Shown here piece by piece: positions 1-3,000 of a stretch of 64,000 bases of DNA. Origin of the DNA: Callorhinchus milii (lineage: Eukaryota); assembly GCF_018977255.1 (NCBI RefSeq), contig NW_024704746.1, forward strand, positions 43,400,001 to 43,464,000, in the 5' to 3' direction. A program made the position numbers. Position 1 is the first letter of the stretch, and every line of letters starts with the position of its first letter.

Positions 1-3000
1 CTGTACAACAGCATACAATGAAACAAAATCCAATATCCTACATAATTATTAATCATACAAAAAGACTGCTTTTTAAACTTGATTTAATGTTTCCTTTATT
101 ATGGAAAATTCTTCAGTATTCTTGTTAAACACAGTTCTTTGCTACTTCTAATTTTAATTCGCAATCGATTCACTCTTAGTAGAATTCAATAAACATTGTA
201 GTTTGACTTGCTACCTTGTTAAAGACTTCGCCACAAAATCCCAATCTTACAGGTTGTTGTGACCCTGAAAATAAAATTCAAGCTAATTTTGAAAGTTTGA
301 ATGCTTTGAAAATGTTTTGGCTTCTTGTTTCCATGTGGCAAGAATATGGACTCCAGCAGTGCCCCAAAGCGCACTCTGGGGTCTCCAAGCCTGGTCTCTT
401 TCCAACCTGTGCCTAATACTTTCCGGAATTAGGGAAGCAGGAGGTGTCCCTCCAGGGAGAGAGAGCGCATTCCATTCCAACAATCTATCTCTGGGATTTC
501 CGTATGTAGGTGGGATGCATGGAAATCCCAGCTTGGTTTGGATACTCTTAAGCGTAGTGATGGGTTTCCACATGTGTCAGAAACCTGACTGACCAACAAA
601 AAAATCTAAAGGAAGGTTATCCAATGTGGACATGTCTAGTACATCTGCTCACAACATAGGCATGGGCCTGAGAGCAGTTAGCTAGCCTACCTGCTCTTTT
701 ATGTCAGATTGCCCTGTGGCACAGGAATATTGAAAGAGAGATAAAATGTATTGAATAGTTTTTAAATAATGGGAAGAGAAGTCAAACCAGAAGCTGTTCC
801 TGTTCTATGTGTGAAATTGAACCACAAACATATTTCTGGCTGCTTTTTCAGTTCCAGAAATGTATTGTATTCACGGCTGACATTTAAAAAAAACACAATT
901 ACAGTGTGTTATAGTCCAAGTTGAGTAATGTTGCAATTTTTCTCTTTTTTTCCCATTTTGGGAATGGCAATTTGCTTATTAACAACCATCGTGCTTTGGT
1001 TATACATGAGTGCAAATGTCTGTGGCCAGACACACCGCTTGAGTGCGTAATCTCTGGGAACAGGACGCTACAAAATCTTGAGGAAAAACAATGCAACCTC
1101 CACAAGCTTCACAGCCAAACTGCCGAATGTTATCAGCAGCGCAACAGATACAGGGGTTTGTGGTTGCTTCATATTGAAATGTATTTAAAATGTATTGACT
1201 TGATCAACAATCAAACTTCCATGTCCAAAACAATTTCAAAGTGTGCAGATCACATTTCATCCAGCAATGTGAAAACAAAATTTTAATAAAAGATAACCAA
1301 TGGTTCAAGAGAAACCATGTAGCATAGACAGTTTATAAAATTAATGCACGTTAACTAATAATTGATAATATTAAATTTCAGAGCTAAATTGCACTGTCAA
1401 ATATGATTAATGAGAAAATTTCTGACTATTGTGACCTCATTTAGAACTGGTACAGATGTATGTTGTATCTTTGACGAACAAAGCATTGCTGATGCTTCAT
1501 CCACCTGATCTTTATTATTGACCGTATATACAATATATGAAGCCCAAGCATTCCACCCTCCCCCCACAACCCCCAGCCCCACTTGCATGTCCAATCTGCT
1601 ATTTGCCAATCAGATCATCCATTTAATAGAGGTGTTCAACATTTTGAGAGGTTTTGATAGAGTAGATGGGGAGAAAATGTTTCCTCTGGTAGGTGGGTCG
1701 GTAACCAGTGGACACAGACTTATGATAATTGCCAAAAGAACCAGAGGGGAAACAAGGAGAATTTTTTATACCCAGAGAGTTATAATAATAATAATCCTTG
1801 CATTTGATATAGTGCTTTCCACATCTTCGAGATGTCTCAAAGCACTTCATAGAATATACTGTAAAGTGAATTGACTGTATTTTTGTGGGAGAAACGCAGC
1901 AACCAATTGCGCACAGCAGTGTCCCACAAACCGTCGTGGATTGAGTGACCAAATTATGATTGTTCTTTTTTCTTGAGGGATTATTATCAGGCATGTGGAG
2001 TAAGGAAACTCCGGGATTCGAACCTAGGTCTCTCGCTTGTTGAGTTGGTGGAGGTAGATTAGATAGTAGTTTTCAAAAGGGAATTGGATAAGTATTTGAC
2101 AAGGAAAATTTGCAAGGCTATGGGGTAAGAACGGTGGAGTGGGACTAGTTGGATAGCTCTTTTGAAGAGCTGGCACAGACCGAATGGTCTCCTTCTGTGC
2201 TGTAAGATTCTATGATATCAGATAAGCAGAAAGAAGCACTTTCTTCTTCTCTGTGGTGAGCGTTCAGCAAGTGACAATTTGAACATTTGTTTCACCTTTT
2301 TGCCTGAGAACTGATCTAGCAATATTTTATAAAATCTCAGACTTGTATTGTAACATCACAGCTATCTGTTACACGTTGGCAAAGTTTCCATATTTTCTTA
2401 TTAAAAACGTATGTGCCATTTGCAAAATTTGAAGGCCAGTATATTTGAAAAAAATGTTTGATTGCAGGTGCAAGTTGTAAAAAGGAGGAACATAGGTATA
2501 GGAGGAAATGGTCAGAATTGCTCTAACCTGTGGAATTTTGAATGCCTGAAAGAATAGTACAAGTACAGAATGGTGGCTTTTAACAAAATAAATTGGATGG
2601 CATCTGGTATCTTAAATTCAGATCCTTGAGTTTGCATGGTTTTTGGCCTCAAAGTTGTATGTTTTACCAAAAAGGTGAAATCACGGAATGATGAAGTTCA
2701 CGCAGTGATACCAATGTTCAACATTTACTCAACCAGTAGAAATGTAACTTCAATAGGGATATTTTACGCAATTGATAATTTAGAGACCAAACATTTTTCA
2801 AGAAACAATTTTCTTCTATTTTTCTGTTACCCTCCCTACAAAGTGTATATTCTTGTATTCATTCAGTGTTTGTTTGTTAATAAAATCCGCCTGTAACTGG
2901 ATAATCTTCTGGCTAGGGCAGTTGAATCAAAGGAAATGAATAGAAGGCATACTTGAAGCCACAGTGTTTTAACAATCTCCTAATTCATTTTATTGAATTA

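What the first reader, a model, noticed from the sequence alone, without database searches (positions are those of the whole stretch)
963..1155. Unprocessed PNPLA8 (iPLA2-gamma) pseudo-exon with the catalytic Asp destroyed
Seen: 65 codons colinear with PNPLA8, bounded at intron-like sequence on both sides, so not a retrocopy. The patatin DGG motif reads NGN, the acceptor is GG, a 2-nt deletion at ~1056 shifts the frame, and about 1 nt is missing at the donor end. Established: DGG carries the catalytic Asp of the patatin Ser-Asp dyad, and PNPLA8 acts in mitochondrial phospholipid turnover. Inference: this is lineage-specific loss of the orthologue, death of an ancient paralogue, or a decayed partial duplicate. 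Several independent lesions argue against sequencing error.
Basis: partly seen in the sequence, partly recalled or inferred. Interest (0 to 1): 0.65.

Follow-up and report, generated by a model that had tools for sequence, protein, structure and literature searches.

The report
Dead lone exon of PNPLA8
A single broken copy of one exon of the phospholipase gene PNPLA8 lies in repeat-rich non-coding DNA; it is an ordinary gene relic, and whether the animal keeps a working copy elsewhere could not be checked.

Summary
Window 963-1155 (+) is colinear with the 65-66 residues of iPLA2-gamma/PNPLA8 that start at the catalytic DGG. It reads in two frames: 963-1055, then 1051/1054-1155. Statistics: phmmer E 3.7e-9 against 1.84 billion proteins, tblastn sum E 4e-17, profile E 1.2e-14 and 1.5e-7.

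DGG reads NGN. A net -2 shift sits in a short CT run at 1050-1056. GG stands where an acceptor AG is expected, after a pyrimidine tract. Three further residues that are invariant in the references are replaced.

One detail fails. No base need be missing at the donor: 193+2 = 195 nt = 65 codons, and GT follows at 1156-1157.

No other PNPLA8 exon is detectable in the window, including 62.8 kb downstream. None of 379 ORFs matches Pfam significantly.

So this is a dead, unprocessed, single-exon relic in SINE- and tandem-repeat-rich DNA. It is most likely a fragmentary or dead extra genomic copy. Loss of the only orthologue is not excluded, because neither the rest of the assembly nor sequence upstream of the window was available. 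Interest is low.

The parts
933..962 (+). Intron-like 3' end: a pyrimidine tract followed by GGG. GG at 961-962 stands where the acceptor AG would be.
   Evidence: 23 of 27 bases in 933-959 are pyrimidines. Similarity to PNPLA8 begins at 963. The acceptor position is inferred, not shown.
963..971 (+). NGN in place of the patatin DGG motif. The catalytic Asp is replaced by Asn and the second Gly by Asn.
   Evidence: D, G, G are invariant in 6 of 6 references and in 102 of 102 located named fish proteins. The dyad role of this Asp is stated in PMC10291501.
963..1055 (+). First half of the exon relic, 31 codons in the frame of 963. It also carries Pro to His (987-989) and Ala to Val (999-1001) at invariant positions.
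   Evidence: Identity to the six references is 18-24 of 31. 4 of 20 invariant columns are changed, against 0-1 of 20-21 for each real protein left out in turn. E 3.7e-9; profile E 1.2e-14.
1050..1056 (+). Frameshift site: ATCTCTG, consistent with loss of one CT unit (net -2). The exact position within the run cannot be fixed.
   Evidence: The two tblastn hits and the two profile hits overlap at 1051-1055 in frames +3 and +1. Sequence seen.
1054..1155 (+). Second half of the exon relic, 34 codons in the frame of 1054. It carries Leu to Phe at 1108-1110 (invariant column), and the last codon reads Gly where 5 of 6 references have Glu.
   Evidence: Identity is 13-21 of 34. 1 of 10 invariant columns is changed. 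Profile E 1.5e-7 and 5e-9.
1156..1161 (+). Donor-like GTTTGT directly after the last aligned codon.
   Evidence: Similarity to the next coding part ends here.

Best explanation
Window 963-1155 is a dead, unprocessed relic of one internal exon of a PNPLA8 (iPLA2-gamma) gene copy. This is the exon that carries the catalytic Asp of the Ser-Asp dyad. It cannot contribute to an enzyme, for four reasons. The Asp and the second Gly of DGG are replaced. The reading frame is broken by a 2-base loss. The expected acceptor AG reads GG. Three more invariant residues are replaced. These lesions are shown. It stands alone: no other PNPLA8 coding piece is detectable in the window, including 62.8 kb downstream on either strand. 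The surroundings are SINE copies and tandem arrays with no recognisable coding domain. These points are also shown. Inferred: it comes from a genomic (not mRNA-derived) extra copy of PNPLA8. That copy was either a partial duplicate carrying this exon, or a once fuller copy now mostly deleted. It has drifted neutrally for a long time, and a working PNPLA8 probably exists elsewhere in the genome. There are at least 6 substitutions in the 30 invariant codons. My arithmetic gives roughly 0.09 per non-synonymous site, which with a recalled vertebrate rate of about 1e-9 per site per year means tens of millions to 100 million years or more.
For: Homology and frame structure. Family name from a source. 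Lesions. At the five checked columns, 102 of 102 located named fish proteins keep D, G, G, P, A, and 95 of 95 with the ATDT anchor keep L. Relaxed constraint: 5 of 30 invariant columns are changed, against 0-1 of 20-21 per real protein in a leave-one-out control on the first half. Not processed: the profile match covers only the exon-equivalent, and the flanks look like an intron end and an intron start. Alone: the best other hits have E of about 1 or worse in the profile searches. Power check: pieces of the next 30 residues with 35% random replacement were found at E<0.01 in 48 of 60 trials. This is optimistic, because the source proteins are in the profile. No Pfam hit better than E 0.0016 in 379 ORFs of 55 aa or more. 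Region 800-1300 matches nothing else in the window. PNPLA8 is widespread: 1748 proteins at E<=1e-20 among the 8000 candidates scored.
Against: The existence of an intact PNPLA8 elsewhere was not tested, because no assembly was available. Only 962 bases lie upstream, so earlier exons, or even a whole gene, could sit just off the window. Introns in a large genome could exceed 62.8 kb, and the last about 30 residues would mostly escape my search (2 of 60). No duplication boundary, target-site duplication or carrier element was found around the relic. The exon boundaries are inferred from where similarity stops and from the 195-nt arithmetic, not from a known gene structure. The age estimate uses a recalled rate for an unidentified organism.
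Confidence: 0.65

Rival explanations
1. Unitary loss: this is what remains of the lineage's only PNPLA8 orthologue, decaying in its ancestral place.
For: Intron-like flanks and an unprocessed structure fit a gene dying in place. Nothing here shows another copy. The moderate decay (5 of 30 invariant columns) fits a loss within one lineage.
Against: The next exons would be of the same age and should be about as recognisable, yet none is found in 62.8 kb (power check). No coding neighbours of any kind were seen, so no synteny supports this. The gene is retained very widely. Its loss has strong phenotypes in mice according to the review. My searches found no paper on such a loss (listings only).
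Confidence: 0.12
2. Remnant of a once complete duplicate or older paralogue whose other exons lie outside the window or behind very long introns.
For: Same as for the best explanation. Only 962 bases upstream could be read. The weak, non-significant match at 17871-17927 (+) to the first 19 residues of the next coding part (8 of 19; E 0.23-0.29) is on the right strand and in the right order.
Against: That match scores E 27 and 7.4 with the two profiles and has no AG before it. Nothing else is colinear. A paralogue dead since the early vertebrate duplications would not keep 58-77% identity in the first half (inference).
Confidence: 0.18
3. A live exon, with the lesions being assembly or sequencing errors.
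For: A 2-base loss in a short CT run could be a consensus error. Neither half has a stop codon in its own frame.
Against: At least 6 substitutions hit codons invariant in all references, including both changes in DGG. The AG is also gone. Errors do not concentrate on conserved residues in this way.
Confidence: 0.03
4. A processed retrocopy fragment, or a chance resemblance.
For: None found.
Against: The match ends exactly at an exon-sized unit, with a pyrimidine tract before it and GT after it. No adjoining exon sequence was found. E-values of 1e-9 to 1e-17 exclude chance.
Confidence: 0.02

Closest known systems
PNPLA8 / calcium-independent phospholipase A2-gamma (iPLA2-gamma) of vertebrates. 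The best named relative here is P0013, from the pipefish Vanacampus margaritifer.
   Same: Colinear over the 65-66 residues from DGG to the ATDT-E end. 24 of 31 and 19 of 34 residues are identical to P0013; 22 of 31 and 21 of 34 to P0027. It keeps HECKCLWP, GTGR and SSATDT.
   Different: DGG reads NGN, the frame is broken, and the AG is lost. Pro, Ala and Leu at invariant columns are replaced. No other part of the gene is present in the window, including the GVSTG serine exon.
Non-processed (duplicated) pseudogene fragments of vertebrate genomes
   Same: Exon with intron-like flanks, disabling lesions, no adjoining exons, and a setting among repeats.
   Different: The parent copy and the duplication boundaries were not seen, so membership is inferred.
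Unitary pseudogenes (a lineage's only copy decaying in place)
   Same: Unprocessed structure with several independent lesions.
   Different: No further exons and no conserved neighbours were detected. Absence of a second copy was not shown.
PNPLA9 / iPLA2-beta, the nearest other patatin-like family member
   Same: Patatin fold with a Ser-Asp dyad and a DGG motif.
   Different: The patatin domains of PNPLA8 and PNPLA9 are only 31% identical in chicken (passage of PMC2435558). The relic is 58-77% identical to iPLA2-gamma proteins in its first half.

Membership tests
PNPLA8 (iPLA2-gamma) gene | Significant, colinear sequence similarity to named iPLA2-gamma proteins | tested here: met
PNPLA8 (iPLA2-gamma) gene | DGG motif with the catalytic Asp (human Asp627) | tested here: not met
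   Reads NGN at 963-971.
PNPLA8 (iPLA2-gamma) gene | GVSTG nucleophile motif with the catalytic Ser | tested here: inconclusive
   No match to that part anywhere in the window. It would lie upstream, and only 962 bases are available there.
PNPLA8 (iPLA2-gamma) gene | Open frame and usable splice sites | tested here: not met
   Net -2 shift at 1050-1056 and GG at 961-962. A GT is present at 1156-1157.
Non-processed pseudogene or fragment | Homology confined to exon units with intron-like flanks, plus disabling lesions | tested here: met
Non-processed pseudogene or fragment | An intact parent gene elsewhere in the same genome | not testable with these tools
   No assembly was at hand. The searches with the relic's own pieces found nothing usable.
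Processed pseudogene (retrocopy) | Neighbouring exons joined without introns | tested here: not met
   Profile matches cover only the exon-equivalent. Nothing adjoins on either side.
Unitary pseudogene | No functional copy in the genome, and a conserved ancestral neighbourhood | not testable with these tools
   Only this window was available. No coding neighbours were detected in it.

The most novel reading that the evidence does not exclude
The relic is the last recognisable piece of the animal's only PNPLA8 gene. That would mean a vertebrate lineage living without iPLA2-gamma, an enzyme of mitochondrial and peroxisomal phospholipid remodelling that is otherwise kept very widely.
Probability: 0.08. 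Interest if true: 0.6.

Novelty: new member of a known kind. Interest (0 to 1): 0.15.

Why it matters
As it stands, little: decayed exon fragments of duplicated genes are common in large, repeat-rich vertebrate genomes. It is useful for annotation, as a place that should not be called a PNPLA8 exon. It could also serve as a neutral marker for dating a duplication. It would matter only if a whole-assembly search showed no intact PNPLA8, because loss of this widely kept enzyme would be unexpected.

Tried and rejected
- **Pfam on the two pieces:** 0 families. The patatin model ends near DGG, so this says little.
- **Solved structures:** one chance hit at E 1.6 and none for the second piece.
- **Word-index protein search with the relic's own pieces:** too short at 31 aa, then no hits. 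P0013 shares several words yet was missed, so this is a limit of the method and not evidence.
- **The listing of cluster members:** not available.
- **Candidate further exons, all rejected as not significant:**
  - 17871-17927 (+): tblastn E 0.23-0.29, profile E 27 and 7.4.
  - 36662-36745 (-): tblastn E 0.002 with one query of twelve, profile E 3 and 67, wrong strand.
  - 59116-59208 (+): profile E 5.9 and 0.82.
  - Scattered hits at 9339-9668 (-): out of order.
  - Sources.
- **Hits of the proline-rich N-terminal parts to 14000-16100:** these are low-complexity matches to a tandem array.
- **Carrier element or duplication boundary:** a 28-nt direct repeat at 727-754 and 1171-1198 (82%) brackets the relic. 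It is AT-rich, and by my rough arithmetic about as likely as not by chance. No inverted termini were found.
- **Reading the two halves through as one sequence, or joining any exon model:** left out. Each piece was searched on its own.
- **The 43 other hits, most of them short and all unnamed:** not fetched or used, because their origin is unknown and some might come from people's samples. They might have shown exon boundaries in other species.
- **Literature:** PNPLA8 with 'pseudogene' (17 papers, 15 listed), with 'gene loss' (3) and with 'shark' (4, 3 listed). Judged by listing only, none concerns such a relic. One search was badly framed and uninformative.
- **Supplementary files:** not consulted.

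Full report
**What is in the sequence**

Translating 963-1170 in the three forward frames gives two pieces.
- The frame starting at 963 gives 31 residues. They begin NGN and contain HECKCLWP.
- The frame starting at 1051/1054 gives 34-35 residues. They contain GTGRY and SSATDT and end at 1155.

Neither piece has a stop in its own frame. I searched the two pieces separately throughout.

**Is it more than chance, and what family is it?**

Four searches gave nothing. Pfam on the two short pieces found no family. The Protein Data Bank gave nothing real. The word-index search with the relic's own pieces also failed. It missed P0013 although they share several words, so that null is a limit of the method.

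An exhaustive phmmer of the 31-residue piece against 1,835,955,588 representatives found 49 proteins at E<=1e-3. The best was 3.7e-9, and none reached 1e-10.

I fetched six full-length hits of 815-855 aa. All six carry GVSTG or GVSSG upstream and QDGG at the matched place.

P0013 is named by NCBI as calcium-independent phospholipase A2-gamma of a pipefish. Its relatives carry the same name or 'patatin-like phospholipase domain containing 8'. There, 1748 proteins reached E<=1e-20 among the 8000 candidates scored, and 120 were listed.

A review gives GVSTG and DGG, with the dyad Ser483-Asp627, as the human PNPLA8 motifs in a 782-residue protein (passages of PMC10291501). The nearest other family member, PNPLA9, is only 31% identical to PNPLA8 in the chicken patatin domain (passage of PMC2435558).

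**Colinearity and the frame break**

- tblastn of the six proteins against the window gave two abutting hits for 6 of 6 queries. One covers 963 (or 957) to 1055 in frame +3, the other 1051-1152 in frame +1. Sum E ranged from 4.1e-17 (P0027) to 3.2e-10 (P0039).
- A profile of the six scored 957-1055 at E 1.2e-14 and 1051-1155 at E 1.5e-7 among 3357 six-frame pieces.
- A profile of 104 sequences gave 1.9e-13 and 5e-9.
- The two frames overlap inside ATCTCTG (1050-1056). The simplest reading is the loss of one CT unit, a net -2 shift.

**Lesions**

| Position | Change | Conservation in references |
|---|---|---|
| 963-965 | Asp to Asn (catalytic Asp of DGG) | invariant in 6 of 6; D in 102 of 102 named fish proteins |
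| 969-971 | Gly to Asn (second Gly of DGG) | invariant in 6 of 6; G in 102 of 102 |
| 987-989 | Pro to His | invariant in 6 of 6; P in 102 of 102 |
| 999-1001 | Ala to Val | invariant in 6 of 6; A in 102 of 102 |
| 1108-1110 | Leu to Phe | invariant in 6 of 6; L in 95 of 95 with the ATDT anchor |

- The six references share 30 invariant columns over this stretch, and the relic changes these 5.
- In a leave-one-out control on the first half, each real protein departs at 0-1 of 20-21 columns. The relic departs at 4 of 20.
- The fish counts come from 104 named ray-finned-fish proteins. Two could not be located by my anchor. Seven lacked the ATDT anchor but show SLKTK by eye.
- Upstream, 23 of the 27 bases in 933-959 are pyrimidines, and GG stands at 961-962 where an acceptor AG would be.
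- These changes need at least 6 substitutions plus one indel and the A to G change. That pattern is not sequencing error.

- 963-1155 is 193 nt. With the 2 lost bases it is 195 nt, or 65 codons.
- That equals the length of the same stretch in P0027 and P0033. The other four references have 66.
- GT follows at 1156-1157.
- The last codon reads Gly where 5 of 6 references have Glu.
- The true exon boundaries are inferred from where similarity stops and from this arithmetic. I had no gene structure to compare with.

**Surroundings**

- No other PNPLA8 coding piece is detectable. With full-length queries, the next hits (E 0.002 and worse) are low-complexity matches of proline-rich N-termini to a tandem array at about 14000-16100.
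- With only the C-terminal remainders (80-92 aa) and 231-aa upstream segments as queries, the best hit was E 0.002. It came from one of twelve queries, at 36662-36745 on the opposite strand. It falls to E 3 and E 67 with the two profiles.
- A match at 17871-17927 (+) to the first 19 residues of the next coding part (8 of 19; E 0.23-0.29) scores E 27 and 7.4 with the profiles. It has no AG before it.
- A match at 59116-59208 scores E 5.9 and 0.82.
- I count none of these as real.
- A power check mutated 30-residue pieces of the next coding part at 35% of positions. They were found at E<0.01 in 48 of 60, 24 of 60 and 2 of 60 trials for the first, second and last piece. This is optimistic, because the source proteins are in the profile. 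A similarly decayed next exon would probably have been seen. The very last piece would not.
- Of 379 stop-to-stop ORFs of 55 aa or more, none matched Pfam better than E 0.0016.
- The window holds a SINE-like family, with 33 local matches to the 1778-2010 element. There are three tRNA-like heads, two of which pass Rfam's tRNA threshold. There are long tandem arrays and one N run at 15658-15788, which I left alone.
- Region 800-1300 has no second copy in the window.
- I did not take the window for human.

**Interpretation**

The relic is a dead, unprocessed single exon. It is not a retrocopy, because the match covers only one exon-sized unit with an intron-like end before it and GT after it.

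Its decay is about 0.09 substitutions per non-synonymous site at formerly invariant codons (my arithmetic). This implies long neutral drift. With a recalled vertebrate rate of about 1e-9 per site per year, that is tens of millions to 100 million years or more. It is far too little for a copy dead since the early vertebrate genome duplications.

The companion exons would be equally old and are absent from 62.8 kb downstream. No neighbouring genes are seen. Pseudogene fragments are common, whereas PNPLA8 is kept very widely. On these grounds I favour a fragmentary or largely deleted extra genomic copy with a working gene elsewhere (0.65).

Loss of the only orthologue (0.12) and a fuller dead copy extending beyond the window (0.18) remain open. 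Neither the rest of the assembly nor more than 962 bases upstream could be examined.

**Left unchecked**

- The organism.
- The names of five of the six references, because one search was not available.
- The 43 other unnamed hits, most of them short, which I did not fetch because their origin is unknown.
- Exon boundaries in a real gene.
- Raw reads and transcripts.
- Supplementary files of papers.
- The closed metagenome and viral collections.

Literature searches for PNPLA8 with 'pseudogene', 'gene loss' or 'shark' listed nothing about such a relic (listings only).

Noticed in passing
window 14069-15236, 15658-15788, 16127-16436, 16955-17418: A cluster of arrays. It holds a C/A-rich 25-nt tandem repeat of about 48 copies with very strong negative GC skew, then a 131-base N run (left alone), a TG-rich array, and a 20-nt unit repeated 23 times at 96% matches.
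   Followed up: partly
window 1778-2010 and 33 local matches elsewhere in the window, e.g. 3755-3983, 22673-22897, 56578-56808: A SINE-like repeat family fills the window. tRNA-like heads at 3995-4066 (-) and 22909-22980 (-) pass Rfam's tRNA threshold. ARAGORN calls them Ala and Glu, and finds a third, Gln-like, at 5025-5096 (+).
   Followed up: partly
window 727-754 and 1171-1198: A 28-nt direct repeat (82% identity), spaced 444 bases, brackets the relic. It is AT-rich, one of seven such short families in 3 kb, and by my rough arithmetic compatible with chance.
   Followed up: partly
window 17871-17927 (+): A weak match (8 of 19) to the first residues of the coding part that follows the relic's exon in PNPLA8. 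It lies in a 99-base unique stretch between two repeat copies. It is not significant (tblastn E 0.23-0.29; profiles E 27 and 7.4) and has no AG before it.
   Followed up: yes
window 915-1286 (+): The frame of the first half stays open for 123 codons, through the out-of-frame second half and into the flank. It is one of 26 ORFs of 120 aa or more in the window, and nothing suggests it is coding.
   Followed up: no
whole window: No Pfam domain at a meaningful E-value in 379 ORFs of 55 aa or more on both strands. The stretch looks free of recognisable coding exons and of transposon ORFs.
   Followed up: yes
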